DNA of 12,851 nucleotides from a virus: the UHGV virus genome UHGV-0102871. One strand, written 5' to 3'. The translations under genes were made by a program, and so were the position numbers. Under the pieces are notes generated by a model, which saw only the letters and a program-made list of their open reading frames with translations, searched no databases and had not been told where the DNA came from. Position 1 is the stretch's first letter. Every line of letters begins with the position of its first letter. Shown piece after piece: positions 1-12,474 of the stretch.

Positions 1-131
1 CTTAACGAAAAGCAGGTGGCAGCATGAGATACGGATCTGTTTGCTGCGCAGCGCCGGTTCTTCTATGGGCATCGCCGCAGCTCCACTGCAAACAGATCCG
101 TATCTCATGCTGCCACCTGCTTTTCGTTAAG
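1..131. repeat. Perfect 44-bp inverted repeat (arms 1-44 and 88-131) around a 43-bp non-palindromic spacer; left arm touches the window edge
   Basis: Reverse complement of 1-44 is identical base-for-base to 88-131, checked manually. The right arm covers the 3' end and stop codon of the minus-strand 52-aa ORF. Confidence 0.85.
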
Positions 132-3884: not shown

Positions 3885-4553
3885 TCATTCATTCTTTGGT
3901 ATGCCGCAAAGGGCGTTTAGCGTTTCAACGGGAATGGCAAGTGCGGTGCTGGTCGCTTCACGGCGTTCCACCTCAGGCAAATATGGCACTGCCTCAGGCC
4001 ACATCTCAGCCAGTTTTTTAACAGTTGAGACTTTGGTTAGAGCACCTTTAACCTGCAATTGGAAGGCATCAACTTCATCGTAAAGAACGTTGATGGTTAC
4101 CGTCGATTCAGTGAGTCGGTCGTGTAATTTTCCAACTTTCTTCAGCGTGCTGTAACTTTCAGGAACGAAACCCGAATCAATTACAGGCGCGAAGGAAGCT
4201 CCGAAGAACAGGTCGCTTTCAAGATCGTGCTTACCAATATGTTTTCCACGGTGGCGATAGCGATGATCCAAACCGTTCCTGGCTAATTCGTGATACTCAC
4301 CATTAATAATGACCTTTAAAGTTGCAGTTTTAGCGCCGACCTGCATCTTGATGAAGGAGTTATCTTTGAAATCTTCCCGAGCCTTAGTTATTTGCTCATC
4401 GCTAGTGTTTTCCTGCTTGAGCAATGCCTGTCGAATTTCTTCAACAATTTTCGCCCTCTCATTAACCGCAGCTTTCGCTTTCTCAAACAATGGGGATGCG
4501 AGAAGCAGGTTATGGCATAGCTGATTTTTAATTTCGTTGTTAAGACGAATCAT
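3885..4553 (-). CDS. AT-rich orphan gene (222 aa), unknown function; first gene of the leftward operon, in the sieB/ral position
   Basis: ORF-track ORF with GAGGGT Shine-Dalgarno 7 nt before ATG 4553. Visibly lower GC than flanking genes (by eye, not computed). Soluble-looking, no recognised domain. Bracketed by a ~400-bp leader upstream and an intrinsic terminator downstream. Confidence 0.75.
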   Translation of the reverse strand: MIRLNNEIKNQLCHNLLLASPLFEKAKAAVNERAKIVEEIRQALLKQENTSDEQITKAREDFKDNSFIKMQVGAKTATLKVIINGEYHELARNGLDHRYRHRGKHIGKHDLESDLFFGASFAPVIDSGFVPESYSTLKKVGKLHDRLTESTVTINVLYDEVDAFQLQVKGALTKVSTVKKLAEMWPEAVPYLPEVERREATSTALAIPVETLNALCGIPKNE

Positions 4554-4969
4554 TGACTTACCCTCTGTCGTTACCCGCTGATGCGGGAGAAATGCTTTGG
4601 CGATGTGGTAGGTGGGAGACCCATTTCGACCCGATTCGGCCTACTTATCTTCGGCAATAGCTCCTCGGGCCTCGCCGCTTTACGTGCGACATATTCCCGT
4701 CCATGAACCCTTCACCACATCCCATAACATTCCCTGTATTGGTCAGCGCCAACTCCCTGCCAGTGTTGCCCGTTCTCACGCCGTTCTCGCTCTCGCGTGG
4801 GGATACTCTCTCACCGACCGGATCGCACCCGGTGATACAGCACGTTTACGTGTAGGGGTCTTAACAGGTCATTGACGCTGTAAATCTGCATGTTGTTAAA
4901 AAGCAGGCGACTTGCTGTCCGCCGCTGGCTAACTTCGCTCAGCTGTCGATGTTTCGTTTCGATGGGGTA

Positions 4970-5048
4970 AATTTAGCGTGATGCTAAATTATGCGCAATA
5001 GCAAAATGCTAAATTGTTGAATGGTTTTATTTAGCGTATTGATTAATA
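4970..5048 (-). promoter_or_regulatory. oL-like operator cluster and probable pL region: three sites with half-site ATTTAGC-N5-GCTAAAT
   Basis: 4970-4990 is a perfect 21-bp palindrome (AATTTAGCGTGATGCTAAATT). Two degenerate copies at ~4996-5015 (AATAGCAAAATGCTAAATT) and ~5028-5048 (ATTTAGCGTATTGATTAAT). Same half-site as the cI/cro intergenic operators. Exact -35/-10 not resolved. Confidence 0.55.
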
Positions 5049-5085
5049 AGCGATTAAAAATTTACAGCGAAGGAATTCGGGACGT

Positions 5086-5109
5086 AAAAAAGCCCGCGCG
5101 ATGGCGGGC
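5086..5109 (-). terminator. Intrinsic terminator downstream of the repressor gene (minus-strand GCCCGC-CAUCGC-GCGGGC + UUUUUU)
   Basis: Plus strand reads AAAAAA-GCCCGC-GCGATG-GCGGGC, 20 nt past the cI-like stop. On the minus strand this is a 6-bp GC stem followed by a U6 tract. Confidence 0.65.
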
Positions 5110-5129
5110 TTGAGGGGTTTTGCGTGAGG

Positions 5130-5807
5130 TTATGGGATGTTTAGTATTTTGGCATCAACCACAACGCCGATGATTTTGCAGTTTCCATTAATTTCTAGCA
5201 TTGGATATGCGGGGTTAAGGGGCTTTAGGAAGCGTCTGCCGGCATCGATTACAAGCTTCTTAAAGGTCGCTTCGTTATCGCCTTCTAGCTTCGCGACAAC
5301 CAGCTTTCCGTTGCGCGGCTCGACTTCAGGATCAACAAGTATCGCTGCTCCCTCGGGTATGCTCAGTCCAGCCGGGGAGGTCATAGAATCCCCTTTAACG
5401 TCCAGCCAGAATGAATCTTCTGAGCAGTCAACAGTCGTGTCATACCAGCGATCTATCGCTCTTCGGTGATAAGGTTCTACAGCTTCCATCCATTGCCCCG
5501 CGCTTACCCAGCTGATTACAGGATAACTTCCTTTTGTCTCGTTCAGTCCTCGAAATGCAACGTTCGAAGGTTCTTCACTGGCGTGTAAAACATCCATCCA
5601 GCCAAAAGGCAGATCAAGCGCAGTTTCAATTTTGCGAGCCATCTTATCGCCGATATTGCGATGAGGGTTTGGTCCCAGTAGCTGGCTAAGCGCAGCCGGA
5701 CTTGTCTCGATGAGCTCGGCAAACTGCGCTTTGGTCATTCCAGACTCGTGCTGACGCTTCTCGTACAGCGCTTCCAGGTTGGCTTTTCTGATTTCTTTAT
5801 TTTCCAT
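5130..5807 (-). CDS. cI: cI-like prophage repressor (HTH N-domain plus LexA/S24 peptidase C-domain), 225 aa
   Basis: C-terminal domain carries the S24 Ser/Lys dyad context (DVKGDSMTSPAG ... ATFKKLV) and LexA-like strands (GAAILVDPEVEPRNGKLVVAKL; KIIGVVVDAKI). N-terminus is HTH-like. Start set at the internal ATG 5807-5805 (MENKEIRK...) just left of the operators; the ORF-track ORF extends to 5924. Confidence 0.85.
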   Translation of the reverse strand: MENKEIRKANLEALYEKRQHESGMTKAQFAELIETSPAALSQLLGPNPHRNIGDKMARKIETALDLPFGWMDVLHASEEPSNVAFRGLNETKGSYPVISWVSAGQWMEAVEPYHRRAIDRWYDTTVDCSEDSFWLDVKGDSMTSPAGLSIPEGAAILVDPEVEPRNGKLVVAKLEGDNEATFKKLVIDAGRRFLKPLNPAYPMLEINGNCKIIGVVVDAKILNIP

Positions 5808-5824
5808 ACCTGCATTGTTACTGC

Positions 5825-5893
5825 TTTTAGCAAAATGATAAATGTGCAAATTGCTAAATGATGCTTGCGTAGTATTTAGCATAACGCTAAACT
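5825..5893. promoter_or_regulatory. oR-like operator cluster with divergent pR/pRM region between cI and cro
   Basis: Sites TTTTAGCAAAATGATAAAT (5825-5843) and ATTTAGCATAACGCTAAAC (5874-5892, 13/14 palindromic) share the oL half-site. Candidate pR: -35 TTGCGT (5865-5870), 17-bp spacer, -10 TAAACT (5888-5893); the stronger operator overlaps the spacer and -10. GGAGA Shine-Dalgarno precedes the cro-like ATG at 5924. Confidence 0.55.
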
Positions 5894-5923
5894 CCAAATC
5901 AAACGACTCACCCGGAGACACCA

Positions 5924-6157
5924 ATGAGCACTGAACTACACCGCTGGCGCAAGGCCGCCACTACCGACGAATGGGCGCAGCTCGCAAAGTTGGCTAACAC
6001 GACGCCAGGTTACCTGGACCAGATCGCCTACGGAAATCGCCGGGCATCTCCAGAAATGGCATCTGCTATCGAGAAAGGCACGAAGAATTTTCACCGCCAG
6101 GCTCCGGTCCTAAAAGAAAGCCTGGTATTCGCATCGCCGCGTGATACTGCGGCCTAA
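5924..6157 (+). CDS. Cro-like HTH regulator, YdaS-family (77 aa)
   Basis: Divergent from the repressor and first gene of the rightward operon. Motif GYLDQIAYGNRRASPEMASAIEKGT matches the YdaS-type Cro-like HTH pattern as recalled (YL.Q...G.R..SPEMA.AIEK.T). Confidence 0.7.
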   Translation: MSTELHRWRKAATTDEWAQLAKLANTTPGYLDQIAYGNRRASPEMASAIEKGTKNFHRQAPVLKESLVFASPRDTAA

Positions 6158-6174
6158 CCACGAAAGGGAAAGCA

Positions 6175-6717
6175 ATGCATTCACTTGCGTATCAACACAA
6201 TACCGGAATACACCCGGGAGCGATGATAAACCGCGCTCAAGCTAAAGCGACGCCGGACCACGAAAAGATCCGCGATGCGGTCCGTGCCTGGTCATCGGCG
6301 CTGGATAATCAGGACGTGGTGTCAGCGCTGATCATCAACGAATACCGGGAGCAGGGCGGGACCGCCATCAGCTTTCCGGACGACATCAGCCGGGCGCGCC
6401 AGAAGCTGTTCCGCTTCCTGGATAACCGCTTCGACTCTGAGCAGTACCGCGAGAACGTGCGCCAGCTGACGCCCGCAATCATGGCCGTTTTGCCGCTGGA
6501 GTATCGCCATCGACTTCTTCCAGAGGACAGTTTTATGTCCCGCTTAGCTCGACTTGAGAAAGAAACGAGCGAGGCGAAAGTGGCCGTTGCGATGAACGCC
6601 CCGCGTCACCAGAAGCTCAAGGAACTCAGTGAGGGGATTGTAGAGATGTTCCGTGTCGACCCGGATCTGACCGCGCCGCTGATGGCTATGGTCACTTCGA
6701 TGTTGGGGGTTATGTGA
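6175..6717 (+). CDS. YdaT-family protein (180 aa) in the cII-equivalent position
   Basis: AGGGAAAG Shine-Dalgarno upstream. Motifs IINEYREQGG... and TPAIMAVLPLEYRHRL resemble Rac prophage YdaT-family proteins as recalled. Follows the YdaS-like gene as in Rac. Confidence 0.6.
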   Translation: MHSLAYQHNTGIHPGAMINRAQAKATPDHEKIRDAVRAWSSALDNQDVVSALIINEYREQGGTAISFPDDISRARQKLFRFLDNRFDSEQYRENVRQLTPAIMAVLPLEYRHRLLPEDSFMSRLARLEKETSEAKVAVAMNAPRHQKLKELSEGIVEMFRVDPDLTAPLMAMVTSMLGVM

Positions 6718-6953
6718 TGGGAAGTTTCAAAAATGGCGAAAGCCAGTCTGCGCGAACAGAACTGGCCTTCAGATGCAAATCGTGTGCACTCATTGCAGGA
6801 GGAATAATGGCAAAAAATCCACGCTATTACCATACCTCTGTACATAAAAACATAACCCGCGACCGCTTCATCCGCTCGGTTAACCCGATTGTGGCAGAGA
6901 AGATGCGCGCCATCCTGGAAGAACTGAAACGTAAGGAGAGTGGCCGTGGGTAA
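6717..6953 (+). CDS. Small hypothetical protein (78 aa; possibly 48 aa from ATG 6807)
   Basis: ATG 6717 overlaps the YdaT-like stop (TGATG). An in-frame ATG at 6807 has a strong AGGAGG Shine-Dalgarno. The 3' end overlaps the start of the O-like gene. No recognised homology. Confidence 0.4.
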   Translation: MGSFKNGESQSARTELAFRCKSCALIAGGIMAKNPRYYHTSVHKNITRDRFIRSVNPIVAEKMRAILEELKRKESGRG

Positions 6954-7845
6954 CGTATCCAATTTAGCCGAAGCCAGAGAGGCCAGAAGGCTCCAGAAAC
7001 CGCGCACGAATGACGGTAAGGGGTTTGCCTTGCTGCACCGTAAAATTATGGATGTGCCGTTCTACAAGGACGCTGAGGCGGCTCATTTATGGGTTCACAT
7101 GCTCCTGCGTGCTAATCACGAACAGACACTGGTATCTACTGATGTTGGCGATGTGATCTGCGAGCGCGGAGAGTTCATCACCGGGCGAAACACACTGGCA
7201 ATGGAAACGGGTTTGACCGCTGATCGCGTTAAATCCCTTCTCCGTAAATTCCAGAATCTGGGCATGATCACCACCAAATCGAACAACCGTTTTACTGTTC
7301 TAAAAGTGGTCAAATATGACGAATATCAGTCAAATTTTTGTCCAGCAGATGTCCAGCCAGCGTCCAGCCCAAACATAGTCGTACCAATGCCTGCGGAGGT
7401 GGAGTGTCCAGCCGATGTCCAGCCAGTGTCCACAGATAACAATATATTAAATAACTTACTACCTAACGGTAGTAAGTATGTCGCAAATGACCAGAAACCC
7501 GCTGAAGAGAAAAAGTCTCGTTTGTCATGCGATGAAGTATGGCAATGCCTGAAAGACGAACTGCCTGAAGCACGGGGATGGAGATGCCTCACTGATGAGC
7601 GACGCAATCTGATCCGCACATTCTGGGGTAAGGCTAATAAGATTGCCCGCAACCTGGACGGCAAGCCGATGGATATGGACGGTTTCAGAAGCTATCTGCG
7701 TTACATCGCTCAGAACTGCCGCTGGATGCTTGAAGACCGACCAGACCAGAAGTCTGGGAAGACCTGGCGCCGCATGAAATTCGATAAGTTCCTGACCGAA
7801 AAGCTCTACATCGAAGTGCGCGAGGGGGATCGTGATGACCGCTGA
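6940..7845 (+). CDS. Replication initiator (lambda O-like, winged-helix N-domain) containing the candidate origin
   Basis: Directly upstream of and overlapping the DnaB-like helicase gene. Basic HTH-like N-terminus. Iterons and an AT-rich tract lie inside the coding sequence, as in lambda O. GTG start at 6940 or 6946 (AAGGAGA Shine-Dalgarno); exact start uncertain. Confidence 0.7.
   Translation: MAVGNVSNLAEAREARRLQKPRTNDGKGFALLHRKIMDVPFYKDAEAAHLWVHMLLRANHEQTLVSTDVGDVICERGEFITGRNTLAMETGLTADRVKSLLRKFQNLGMITTKSNNRFTVLKVVKYDEYQSNFCPADVQPASSPNIVVPMPAEVECPADVQPVSTDNNILNNLLPNGSKYVANDQKPAEEKKSRLSCDEVWQCLKDELPEARGWRCLTDERRNLIRTFWGKANKIARNLDGKPMDMDGFRSYLRYIAQNCRWMLEDRPDQKSGKTWRRMKFDKFLTEKLYIEVREGDRDDR
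7339..7435. repeat. Iteron array (GTCCAGC core; two ~31-bp units of three iterons at ~11-bp spacing) followed by an AT-rich tract 7437-7480: candidate replication origin
   Basis: GTCCAGC at 7340, 7351, 7362, 7406, 7417, plus degenerate GTCCACA at 7427. Unit 7339-7369 is near-identical to 7405-7435. Encodes the repeated peptide CPADVQPASSP / CPADVQPVSTD. Immediately followed by AATATATTAAATAACTTACTACCTAACGGTAGTAAGTAT. Confidence 0.6.
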
Positions 7846-12287: not shown

Positions 12288-12363
12288 TTACTGCGCTTTG
12301 ATTTTTCATAATCACTCCGCCATAATCATGTCATCGGAGCCTGAACAACTCCGGTGACTTCTT

Positions 12364-12387
12364 CGCATTTAAGGGGACTTAAATGCG
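12364..12387. promoter_or_regulatory. Perfect 10-bp inverted repeat with 4-nt loop (CGCATTTAAG-GGGA-CTTAAATGCG) upstream of the NinB-like gene
   Basis: Seen directly in the sequence. Not followed by a T-tract, so more likely a protein-binding site or RNA hairpin than an intrinsic terminator. Confidence 0.3.
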
Positions 12388-12474
12388 ACCACAATCTGAA
12401 CTCATCGCCTTGTCACAGATGCAGACATGCACCTGCGATTTTCTGCATTCTGCGGTTTCCGTCAAGGAGGCCGT

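What the first reader, a model, noticed from the sequence alone, without database searches (positions are those of the whole stretch)
5924..6717. YdaS-like and YdaT-like pair in the cro/cII positions beside a lambda-type S24 repressor
The rightward operon opens with a YdaS-like Cro-type HTH and a YdaT-like protein, as in the Rac prophage, rather than lambda cro/cII. This combines a Rac-type early-right module with a lambda-type cI repressor and Red recombination module, a mosaic arrangement. The YdaS/YdaT pair has been discussed as a toxin-antitoxin-like or cell-division-affecting module; that attribution is from memory.
Basis: established knowledge. Interest (0 to 1): 0.4.

Follow-up and report, generated by a model that had tools for sequence, protein, structure and literature searches.

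The report
Phi80-type cro/cII pair, already known
These two genes are the ordinary Cro-like and CII-like lysis/lysogeny regulators of a phi80-type lambdoid prophage, not a toxin-antitoxin pair or an unusual Rac/lambda hybrid, although the CII-like protein may have an unreported second DNA target further downstream.

Summary
Both ORFs exist exactly as stated: 5924-6157 (77 aa) and 6175-6717 (180 aa). They lie beside an S24 repressor (5130-5807, minus strand).

- **CII-position protein.** It is a clear YdaT-family member (Pfam 94 bits against a cut-off of 21). Its model matches only the solved YdaT structures. It is 78% identical to the phage phi80 cII product but only 31% to Rac YdaT.
- **Cro-position protein.** It is a small HTH protein that fails the YdaS Pfam threshold (13 against 30 bits). 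Its best structural match is nevertheless CP-933P YdaS.
- **The "Rac module plus lambda repressor" reading.** This is misleading, because S24 cI + HTH cro + YdaT-type cII is the phi80 layout. In 73 viral loci the same cII follows seven unrelated Cro clusters, always beside an S24 repressor.
- **Toxin-antitoxin reading.** Published work rejects it, and the free exchange of partners argues against it.

Three things go beyond the finding. A conserved hairpin and a stretch with almost no synonymous variation sit at the cro/cII joint. The cII gene is itself chimeric. A near-perfect YdaT box (12298-12315) overlaps a promoter in front of ybcN, the first gene of the nin block that leads to Q in related prophages.

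Verdict: real, ordinary, already known.

The parts
4972..5046 (.). OL: three 17-bp operator-like dyads of the form TTTAGC-N5-GCTAAA, at 4972-4988, 4997-5013 and 5030-5046
   Evidence: Matches with 0-2 mismatches occur only here and at OR. In total there are 13 matches at <=3 mismatches against 5.4 expected.
5090..5111 (-). Intrinsic terminator-like hairpin plus T-run just after the repressor gene
5130..5807 (-). cI-type repressor: HTH plus S24 autoprotease, 225 aa counted from the ATG at 5807
   Evidence: PF00717 scores 102 bits and HTH_3 is present. PHROG 4 gives 1.7e-49. Ala-Gly at 103-104, GDSM and FKK are present.
5826..5891 (.). OR: three operator-like dyads at 5826-5842, 5842-5858 and 5875-5891, lying between the divergent repressor and cro genes
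5924..6157 (+). Cro-position gene: a 77-aa HTH protein, remotely YdaS-like
6136..6153 (+). GC hairpin GCCGC-N8-GCGGC at the 3' end of cro. It encodes the terminal Ala-Ala and is conserved in front of phi80-type cII genes.
   Evidence: 39 of 44 distinct upstream sequences
6154..6240 (.). Conserved junction block: about 21 nt upstream of cII plus cII codons 1-22, with almost no synonymous variation. It contains a weak YdaT-box-like dyad, ATGATA-N6-GCTCAA, at 6223-6240. This is the candidate establishment-promoter region.
6175..6717 (+). cII-position gene: a 180-aa YdaT-family regulator of the phi80 cII type
6738..6770 (-). Strong minus-strand hairpin followed by a U-rich tract, in the same place as the annotated phi80 M3 (oop-like) RNA. 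Candidate antisense-RNA terminator.
6807..6953 (+). Small ORF of 48 aa (DUF2740 / PHROG 1913) between cII and the replication genes
6940..7845 (+). O-like replication initiator, marking the downstream boundary of the immunity region
   Evidence: PHROG 345 gives 1.5e-67
12298..12326 (+). Promoter-like TTGATT-17-CATAAT. Its -35 and spacer form the dyad TTGATT-N6-AATCAC, which is one mismatch from the published YdaT box. It lies upstream of ybcN/nin.

Best explanation
The interval is the rightward half of the immunity (lysis/lysogeny decision) region of a phi80-like lambdoid prophage of Enterobacteriaceae.

**Repressor.** The S24 repressor (5130-5807, minus strand) is inferred to bind three 17-bp dyads (TTTAGC-N5-GCTAAA) at OR and three at OL. 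By analogy with lambda cI and LexA, it would be inactivated by RecA-stimulated self-cleavage.

**Cro analogue.** The 77-aa HTH protein is the first gene of the rightward operon. It is inferred to bind the same OR dyads and to turn down repressor maintenance transcription.

**CII analogue.** The 180-aa protein has a disordered 25-residue N-terminal tail, a POU-like HTH domain that keeps the DNA-contacting arginine (R80), and C-terminal helices. By analogy with CP-933P and Rac YdaT, these helices would make a tetramer. After infection it is inferred to activate a leftward establishment promoter at the cro/cII joint. That would supply repressor and antisense-cro transcription.

**What is shown:** gene identities, family memberships, the operator repeats, the mosaic joint, and nucleotide-level conservation at the joint.

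**What is inferred from homologues:** DNA binding, oligomerisation, promoter activation and the role in lysogeny.

**A weaker additional inference:** the CII-like protein may also bind the YdaT-box dyad at 12298-12315, which overlaps a promoter in front of the nin/Q block, and so delay late-gene activation.
For: - **Family and fold of the CII-like protein.** Pfam PF06254 scores 94 bits and PHROG 163 gives 1e-59. The protein is 78% identical to phi80 cII, which GenBank records annotate as cII, and 99% identical to CobraSix gp54. The AF2 model matches only YdaT structures 3c4r and 8bt1, with target-normalised TM 0.68.
- **Recognition helix.** It reads QKLFRFLD, against QKIFRWLD in CP-933P YdaT, and the arginine is kept.
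- **Cro-like protein.** Its best structural hits are CP-933P YdaS.
- **Operators.** Three dyads at OR and three at OL.
- **Published function of homologues.** YdaS and YdaT act as Cro and CII analogues, and YdaT activates a leftward promoter between ydaS and ydaT (PMC8630535, PMC9986795, PMC11879457).
- **Junction conservation.** cII codons 1-22 show ten-fold lower synonymous variability than the rest of the gene (0.015 against 0.17, p=1.6e-8). Against phi80, 20 of 20 codons are identical there, compared with 67 of 113 elsewhere (p=9e-5). In lambda, pRE overlaps the cII 5' end (established knowledge).
- **The element works in a real phage.** The same cII, at 99% identity, occurs in the isolated phage CobraSix, and 494 relatives are found in IMG/VR.
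Against: - No experiment exists for this Cro type or this operator sequence.
- The consensus scan finds no sigma-70-like promoter anywhere in 4850-7000, so pR, pRM and pRE are not located.
- The published YdaT box TTGATT-N6-AATCAA is absent from the cro/cII joint at <=3 mismatches. Only a weak, 3-mismatch dyad lies at 6223-6240.
- The low synonymous variation at the joint could instead reflect frequent homologous exchange at a module boundary.
- The Cro-like protein fails both the YdaS and the HTH_3 Pfam thresholds.
Confidence: 0.85

Rival explanations
1. The two genes form a toxin-antitoxin-like or toxin-repressor module. The YdaT-like protein would be a growth or division toxin, neutralised or repressed by its upstream partner or by the repressor.
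For: Pfam and NCBI still name the families 'toxin YdaS/YdaT'. Ectopic expression of Rac YdaS or YdaT is toxic and causes filamentation (PMC5700377, PMC5700373, PMC11879457).
Against: - The same cII-like gene (96-100% identical) follows seven unrelated upstream gene clusters. There is therefore no partner fidelity, which a cognate toxin-antitoxin pair requires.
- The fold is a DNA-binding HTH plus helical bundle.
- No PADLOC hit was found.
- The literature rejects the toxin-antitoxin reading. CP-933P YdaT showed no toxicity. Rac toxicity is explained by activation of rcsA (PMC5917428, PMC8630535, PMC11879457).
Confidence: 0.03
2. The CII-like protein works mainly as a repressor or roadblock, not as an activator of repressor synthesis. 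Its principal target would be the dyad over the promoter at 12298-12326, through which it would gate nin/Q expression. Repressor establishment would then depend on something else.
For: - The only match to the YdaT box at <=1 mismatch in the window is at 12298-12315. It overlaps the -35 and spacer of TTGATT-17-CATAAT.
- The dyad is kept at the same place in phi80, HK639, 4A7, NCTC9040 and phage 82, with different 6-nt spacers and a compensatory change in both half-sites in phi80.
- All 25 full-length phage records with this region encode a YdaT-type CII, whereas only 42 of 50,697 phage records do so overall.
- Of 31 viral loci with >=7 kb upstream of the dyad, 21 encode such a CII.
- No strong box lies at the cro/cII joint.
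Against: - At least one locus with the dyad carries a lambda-type CII instead (L110), and probably a second (L113).
- The association is confounded by linkage and by shared ancestry of phi80-like phages.
- phi80 cII is annotated as a lysogeny-decision gene, and CP-933P and Rac YdaT activate leftward promoters (PMC8630535, PMC11879457).
- No binding data exist for this site.
Confidence: 0.1
3. The genes are inert remnants in a decaying cryptic prophage and have no current regulatory role.
For: No complete E. coli genome holds more than 76% of the window, so the element is highly mosaic. Rac and CP-933P, the characterised relatives, are both defective.
Against: - The ORFs, ribosome-binding sites, operators and catalytic residues of the repressor are all intact.
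- Near-identical cII and replication genes are present in CobraSix, a phage isolated from raw sewage.
- The most similar prophages, which share 56-76% of the window, carry integrase, Q, and (in FDAARGOS_1250) lysis and head genes.
Confidence: 0.04

Closest known systems
Phage phi80 immunity region (cI, gene 30, cII, M3 RNA)
   Same: - The gene order is the same: S24 cI, a divergent small HTH gene, a 180-aa cII, then replication genes.
- The cII product is 78% identical, and 92% identical (100 of 110) over residues 1-110.
- The first 66 nt of cII are identical and the 21-nt leader nearly so (one mismatch).
- The ~410-nt pL leader, including the annotated nutL, differs by one base.
- GamL is of the phi80 type.
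- A hairpin lies where the M3 RNA is annotated in phi80.
   Different: - The repressor and Cro have a different immunity specificity. The Cro-like protein is 24% identical to gp30.
- The operators are 17-bp TTTAGC-N5-GCTAAA dyads here, against 19-bp sites annotated in phi80.
- The C-terminal 70 residues of CII match phi80 at only 41 of 70 positions.
- Replication uses a DnaB-type helicase rather than a P-like loader.
- An Nmad5 gene sits where phi80 has N.
CP-933P YdaS/YdaT (E. coli O157:H7; PDB 8c7k, 8co2, 8bt1)
   Same: These are the best structural matches for both proteins. The recognition helix is very similar, QKLFRFLD against QKIFRWLD. The genes occupy the same positions, and their Cro/CII-analogue roles have been demonstrated (PMC8630535, PMC9986795).
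   Different: - Identity is only about 27-30%.
- The repressor there is PaaR2, which comes with a ParE toxin-antitoxin system and is not an S24 protein.
- The strong TTGATT-N6-AATCAA box lies at the ydaS/ydaT joint there. Here it lies 6 kb downstream.
- The window protein has an extra 25-residue N-terminal tail and extra C-terminal helices.
Rac prophage RacR-YdaS-YdaT (E. coli K-12)
   Same: The second gene belongs to the same Pfam family, and the divergent layout is the same. The YdaT box is of the same form, and my scan recovers it as a positive control.
   Different: - Identity is 31% for YdaT and 29% for YdaS.
- RacR is a short repressor with no S24 domain.
- Rac YdaS passes PF15943 with 108 bits, whereas the window protein scores 13.
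- Rac recombination genes are RecE/RecT, not Bet/Exo.
Lambda Cro and CII
   Same: The positions are the same, and the inferred logic is the same: one regulator competes with the repressor at OR and a second activates establishment. The cis-constrained 5' end of cII recalls pRE overlapping lambda cII (established knowledge).
   Different: There is no detectable sequence homology; no PF09048 or lambda CII family hit appears. YdaT-type proteins recognise inverted repeats as 222-symmetric tetramers, whereas lambda CII recognises TTGC direct repeats (PMC9986795). The TTGC-N6-TTGC motif is not enriched here.

Membership tests
YdaT family (Pfam PF06254; phi80 cII type) | Profile score above the curated threshold | tested here: met
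   94.2 bits against a cut-off of 21. All 120 listed homologues carry PF06254.
YdaT family (Pfam PF06254; phi80 cII type) | POU-like HTH domain followed by a long helix, as in 8bt1 and 3c4r | tested here: met
   The core of the AF2 model has pLDDT 84-90. Its only significant PDB matches are 3c4r and 8bt1, with target-normalised TM 0.68 and 30% identity over about 120 columns.
YdaT family (Pfam PF06254; phi80 cII type) | Conserved DNA-contacting arginine in the recognition helix (CP-933P R60, Rac R57) | tested here: met
   R80 is invariant in alignments with Rac YdaT and CP-933P YdaT.
YdaT family (Pfam PF06254; phi80 cII type) | Tetramer that binds a TTGATT-N6-AATCAA inverted repeat at the cro/cII joint and activates a leftward promoter | tested here: inconclusive
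   No box at <=3 mismatches lies at the joint. A weak dyad at 6223-6240 is positionally conserved in four phages. A 1-mismatch box lies at 12298-12315. Oligomeric state and binding cannot be tested with these tools.
YdaS family (Pfam PF15943) | Profile score above the curated threshold | tested here: not met
   13.3 bits against a cut-off of 30. Among 26 family members the best E-value is 0.0017. Precomputed Pfam domains are '-' for all 49 homologues.
YdaS family (Pfam PF15943) | Fold like the solved CP-933P YdaS | tested here: met
   8c7k and 8co2 are the top hits, with TM 0.68-0.70 and rmsd 2.4-2.6 over 67 columns. The E-value is only 0.02-0.06, and other XRE-type HTH proteins follow closely.
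Lambda Cro (PF09048) and lambda CII family | Detectable sequence homology | tested here: not met
   No hit appears at E<=0.1 for either protein. A true PF09048 Cro does precede the same cII in other loci.
Type II toxin-antitoxin pair | Cognate, co-inherited two-gene pair | tested here: not met
   The same cII follows seven unrelated upstream gene clusters in 73 loci. The homology break lies at the cro stop codon.
Type II toxin-antitoxin pair | Toxin with growth-inhibiting activity that is neutralised by the partner protein | not testable with these tools
   Published work on the homologues argues against it (PMC5917428, PMC8630535).
Lambda-type (LexA-like) S24 phage repressor | N-terminal HTH plus an S24 domain with an Ala-Gly site and a Ser/Lys dyad | tested here: met
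   PF00717 scores 102 bits. The motifs VSAG, GDSM and FKK are present.
Lambda Red-type recombination module | Bet annealing protein, lambda-type exonuclease and a nuclease inhibitor | tested here: met
   TIGR01913 Bet scores 105.7 bits against 77. TIGR03033 scores 86.6 against 68. phi80 GamL scores 151 against 40.

The most novel reading that the evidence does not exclude
The YdaT-type CII of phi80-like phages may have a conserved, unreported second target. This is the dyad TTGATT-N6-AATCA(A/C), which forms the -35 and spacer of a promoter in front of ybcN/nin and Q (window 12298-12326). Binding there would let CII directly shut or gate expression of the late-gene activator. That would be a protein-operator counterpart of lambda's CII-paQ antisense route.

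The conserved hairpin and the stretch of cII codons 1-22 with almost no synonymous variation would then be the establishment-promoter element. That hairpin also makes unrelated Cro proteins end in Ala-Ala.
Probability: 0.3. Interest if true: 0.45.

Novelty: already known. Interest (0 to 1): 0.2.

Why it matters
As stated, the finding adds nothing new. The layout is that of phage phi80, the family is annotated in PHROGs as a CII-like activator, and the Cro/CII-analogue function of YdaS/YdaT has been published.

It has practical value as a caution for annotation. NCBI and Pfam names still call this regulator a 'toxin', and PHROGs labels the small ORF after it a 'tail protein'.

The side observations could matter modestly. 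If the dyad in front of the nin/Q block is a real CII site, it would show how YdaT-type CII proteins delay lytic development. It would also explain why no strong box is found at the cro/cII joint in phi80-like phages.

Tried and rejected
- **Rfam scan of the whole window**. Only sub-threshold chance hits appeared, and no oop-like family.
- **NCBIfam for the two proteins**. Nothing meaningful.
- **PADLOC**. No defence-system hit.
- **Consensus promoter scan of 4850-7000**. It found no promoter, so pR, pRM and pRE could not be placed. My hand-picked hexamers were too weak to report as findings.
- **Lambda CII box TTGC-N6-TTGC**. There were fewer matches than chance. The one at the cII start codon is in the wrong orientation for the lambda analogy.
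- **nutR search using the phi80 nutL boxA and core**. Only nutL itself was found, so the cro-end hairpin is not a copy of the annotated phi80 nut core.
- **Short repeats inside the conserved joint**. Several 5-7 bp dyads and direct repeats turned up, but none was convincing.
- **Literature search for phi80 cII and pRE**. No open-access description of a phi80 pRE was found. The genetic definition of phi80 cII therefore rests on the GenBank annotations and on my memory of Ogawa et al. 1988.
- **Ala-Ala ends of the Cro proteins as a ClpXP degron.** I considered this but could not test it.

Full report
**What is there.** The window is the early region of a lambdoid prophage. The finding's interval is 99.9% identical to prophages in three complete E. 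coli genomes. No complete genome holds more than 76% of the whole window, so the element is mosaic.

From left to right the genes are:
- a lambda-type exonuclease, Bet and phi80-type GamL;
- an Nmad5 protein;
- an S24 repressor at 5130-5807, on the minus strand;
- the two genes of the finding, at 5924-6157 and 6175-6717;
- a 48-aa DUF2740 ORF;
- an O-like initiator and a phage DnaB helicase.

Six 17-bp dyads of the form TTTAGC-N5-GCTAAA lie in two groups. Three sit between the repressor and the 77-aa gene, and three sit just beyond the repressor's terminator. This is the classical OR/OL pattern. The repressor has the Ala-Gly site, the GDSM serine and the lysine expected of a self-cleaving LexA-like repressor.

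**The cII-position protein.** It is a secure YdaT-family member.
- Pfam PF06254 scores 94 bits against a cut-off of 21, and PHROG 163 ('CII-like transcriptional activator') gives 1e-59.
- It has sequence hits to the solved YdaT structures 8bt1 and 3c4r.
- The core of its AF2 model matches only those two structures, with target-normalised TM 0.68.
- Its recognition helix, QKLFRFLD, is close to that of CP-933P YdaT, QKIFRWLD, and it keeps the DNA-contacting arginine.

The decisive point for interpretation is its nearest relative. It is 78% identical to the product of the phage phi80 cII gene and 99% identical to gp54 of the isolated phage CobraSix. It is only 31% identical to Rac YdaT. More than 900 protein clusters and 494 viral contigs carry close relatives, so this is a common gene.

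**The cro-position protein.** It is a small HTH protein from a tight family of 77-aa proteins in Enterobacteriaceae. It fails the curated thresholds of both PF15943 YdaS (13.3 against 30 bits) and HTH_3 (18.2 against 23). The best structural matches of its model (pLDDT 80) are the two CP-933P YdaS structures, at TM 0.68-0.70 and 27% identity. Other XRE-type regulators follow closely behind. 'YdaS-like' is therefore acceptable as a description of a remote resemblance, but not as a family assignment.

**Is this a Rac-type module joined to a lambda-type repressor?** No. phi80 itself has an S24 cI, a divergent small HTH gene (gene 30), this cII and an antisense M3 RNA. The arrangement is therefore a known type.

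The two genes are also not a unit.
- DNA homology with phi80, CobraSix and KO-TP1 begins within the last two codons of cro.
- In 73 viral loci that carry this cII, the upstream gene falls into seven unrelated clusters. These include true PF15943 members, HTH_3 proteins and even a true lambda Cro (PF09048). The repressors form three clusters, each with the S24 GDSM motif in its representative.
- In Klebsiella relatives the same cII type sits beside short repressors that lack an S24 domain.

So cII is an independently exchanged cassette. This also argues directly against a cognate toxin-antitoxin pair.

The literature agrees. Jobling (PMC5917428), Jurenas et al. (PMC8630535) and Prolic-Kalinsek et al. 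[quoted passage not shown] The last of these papers notes the homology with phi80 CII. The toxicity of Rac YdaT is explained by activation of rcsA (PMC11879457).

**Mechanism.** By homology, the 77-aa protein should compete with the repressor at OR. The 180-aa protein should tetramerise and activate a leftward establishment promoter at the cro/cII joint. I could not locate that promoter. The consensus scan finds no promoter anywhere in 4850-7000, and the published YdaT box is absent from the joint at up to three mismatches.

The joint does, however, carry a clear signature of constraint at the nucleotide level.
- Among 67 distinct cII sequences, codons 1-22 have a synonymous variability of 0.015, against 0.17 for the rest of the gene (p=1.6e-8).
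- Against phi80, 20 of 20 codons encoding the same amino acid are identical there, against 67 of 113 elsewhere (p=9e-5). Against a relative with about 73% overall protein identity the figures are 14 of 15 and 55 of 108.
- These codons encode a tail that is predicted to be disordered.
- Just upstream, a GC hairpin carries the cro stop codon in or next to its loop. It is present in 39 of 44 distinct upstream sequences, behind unrelated cro genes. Nearly all of those cro genes therefore end in Ala-Ala.
- A weak dyad, ATGATA-N6-GCTCAA, lies at 6223-6240. It sits at the same offset in phi80, 4A7 and HK639.

This is compatible with an embedded promoter and operator, as in lambda where pRE overlaps the cII 5' end. 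It is equally compatible with a recombination linker that is kept uniform by frequent exchange. I cannot separate these two explanations computationally.

**A lead outside the finding's coordinates.** The only match to the YdaT box at one mismatch or fewer in the window is TTGATT-TTTCAT-AATCAC at 12298-12315. About 0.07 such matches are expected by chance. It forms the -35 and spacer of a promoter-like TTGATT-17-CATAAT in front of ybcN and the nin block.

- The dyad recurs at the same place in phi80, HK639, 4A7, NCTC9040/FDAARGOS_1250 and phage 82. The 6-nt spacers differ, and in phi80 both half-sites carry a compensatory change, giving TTGATA and TATCAA.
- In the 40.8-kb locus around the FDAARGOS_1250 prophage it is the only hit.
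- The same scan recovers the experimentally mapped Rac box, which serves as a positive control.
- Rac and CP-933P YdaT are only 30% identical, yet each binds the other's box and activates the same box-dependent promoter (PMC11879457). Conservation of specificity across the family is therefore plausible.
- These phages have different immunities, so the cognate regulator of the dyad cannot be cI or Cro.
- All 25 full-length phage records that share this region encode a YdaT-type CII, whereas only 42 of 50,697 records do so overall.
- Of 31 viral loci with at least 7 kb upstream of the dyad, 21 encode such a CII.

There is counter-evidence. At least one locus with the dyad has a lambda-type CII, and probably a second. 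The association is also confounded by linkage and by common descent. I rate this hypothesis at about 0.3. The papers I read do not mention such a site. The phage 82 record annotates the promoter as putative, and it marks a different downstream repeat as a possible regulator-binding site.

**Further mosaicism.** The cII gene is itself chimeric. Residues 23-110 are closest to phi80 (78 of 88 identical). Residues 111-180 are closest to a Klebsiella prophage type (65 of 70) rather than to phi80 (41 of 70). This implies exchange at the hinge between the DNA-binding and oligomerisation parts of the protein.

**Verdict.** The interpretation needs correcting in four ways. This is a phi80-type immunity region, not a Rac/lambda hybrid. 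The pair is not a module. It is not a toxin-antitoxin system. The first gene is only remotely YdaS-like. The arrangement and the function class are already known, so interest is low. The side observations, namely the dyad at the nin promoter, the constrained joint and the hairpin, are modest and testable leads.

Noticed in passing
window 12298-12326: A promoter-like TTGATT-17-CATAAT whose -35 and spacer form the dyad TTGATT-N6-AATCAC, one mismatch from the published YdaT box. It is conserved at the same place, upstream of ybcN/ninB, in phi80, HK639, 4A7, phage 82 and E. coli prophages. It mostly co-occurs with a YdaT-type cII.
   Followed up: yes
window 12330-12395: Two consecutive conserved hairpins lie in the leader downstream of that promoter: CATCGGAG...CTCCGGTG and GCATTTAAG-GGGA-CTTAAATGC. 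The second is annotated as IR4 in phi80 and as a 'possible regulator-binding site' in phage 82. Their function is unknown.
   Followed up: no
window 6136-6153: A GC hairpin at the very end of cro, conserved in front of phi80-type cII genes and behind unrelated cro genes (39 of 44 distinct sequences). The cro stop codon lies in or beside its loop, so unrelated Cro proteins end in Ala-Ala. It does not resemble the annotated phi80 nutL core.
   Followed up: partly
window 6175-6240: cII codons 1-22 show about ten-fold lower synonymous variation than the rest of the gene, and they encode a tail predicted to be disordered. A weak dyad, ATGATA-N6-GCTCAA, at 6223-6240 sits at the same offset in four diverged phages.
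   Followed up: partly
window 6175-6717: The cII gene is chimeric. The DNA-binding part (aa 23-110) is closest to phi80. The C-terminal 70 residues are closest to a Klebsiella prophage type (65 of 70 identical) rather than to phi80 (41 of 70).
   Followed up: partly
window 4560-4960 (minus strand): The ~410-nt untranslated pL leader differs from that of phi80 by a single base and includes the annotated nutL boxA and core. The first gene after it is an Nmad5 protein (3885-4553) rather than phi80 N. No second nut-like copy is found in the rightward operon.
   Followed up: partly
window 6738-6770 (minus strand): A strong hairpin followed by a U-rich tract lies just beyond the cII stop, where phi80 and HK639 have an annotated M3 (oop-like) antisense RNA. 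The sequence is not conserved with phi80 and gives no Rfam match.
   Followed up: partly
window 1-131: A 57-nt inverted repeat, 91% complementary, with a 17-nt gap, lies at the left end of the window. It produced a spurious Rfam microRNA hit.
   Followed up: no
window 6807-6953: The 48-aa ORF between cII and the O-like gene matches DUF2740, and also PHROG 1913, which is labelled 'tail protein'. Given its position in the early operon, that label is almost certainly an annotation error.
   Followed up: no
window 5807-5924: RefSeq annotates the homologous repressor as 250 aa, with a start inside the OR operators. The ATG at 5807 (MENKEIRK...) gives 225 aa and leaves the operators intergenic, so it is the more likely start.
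   Followed up: no
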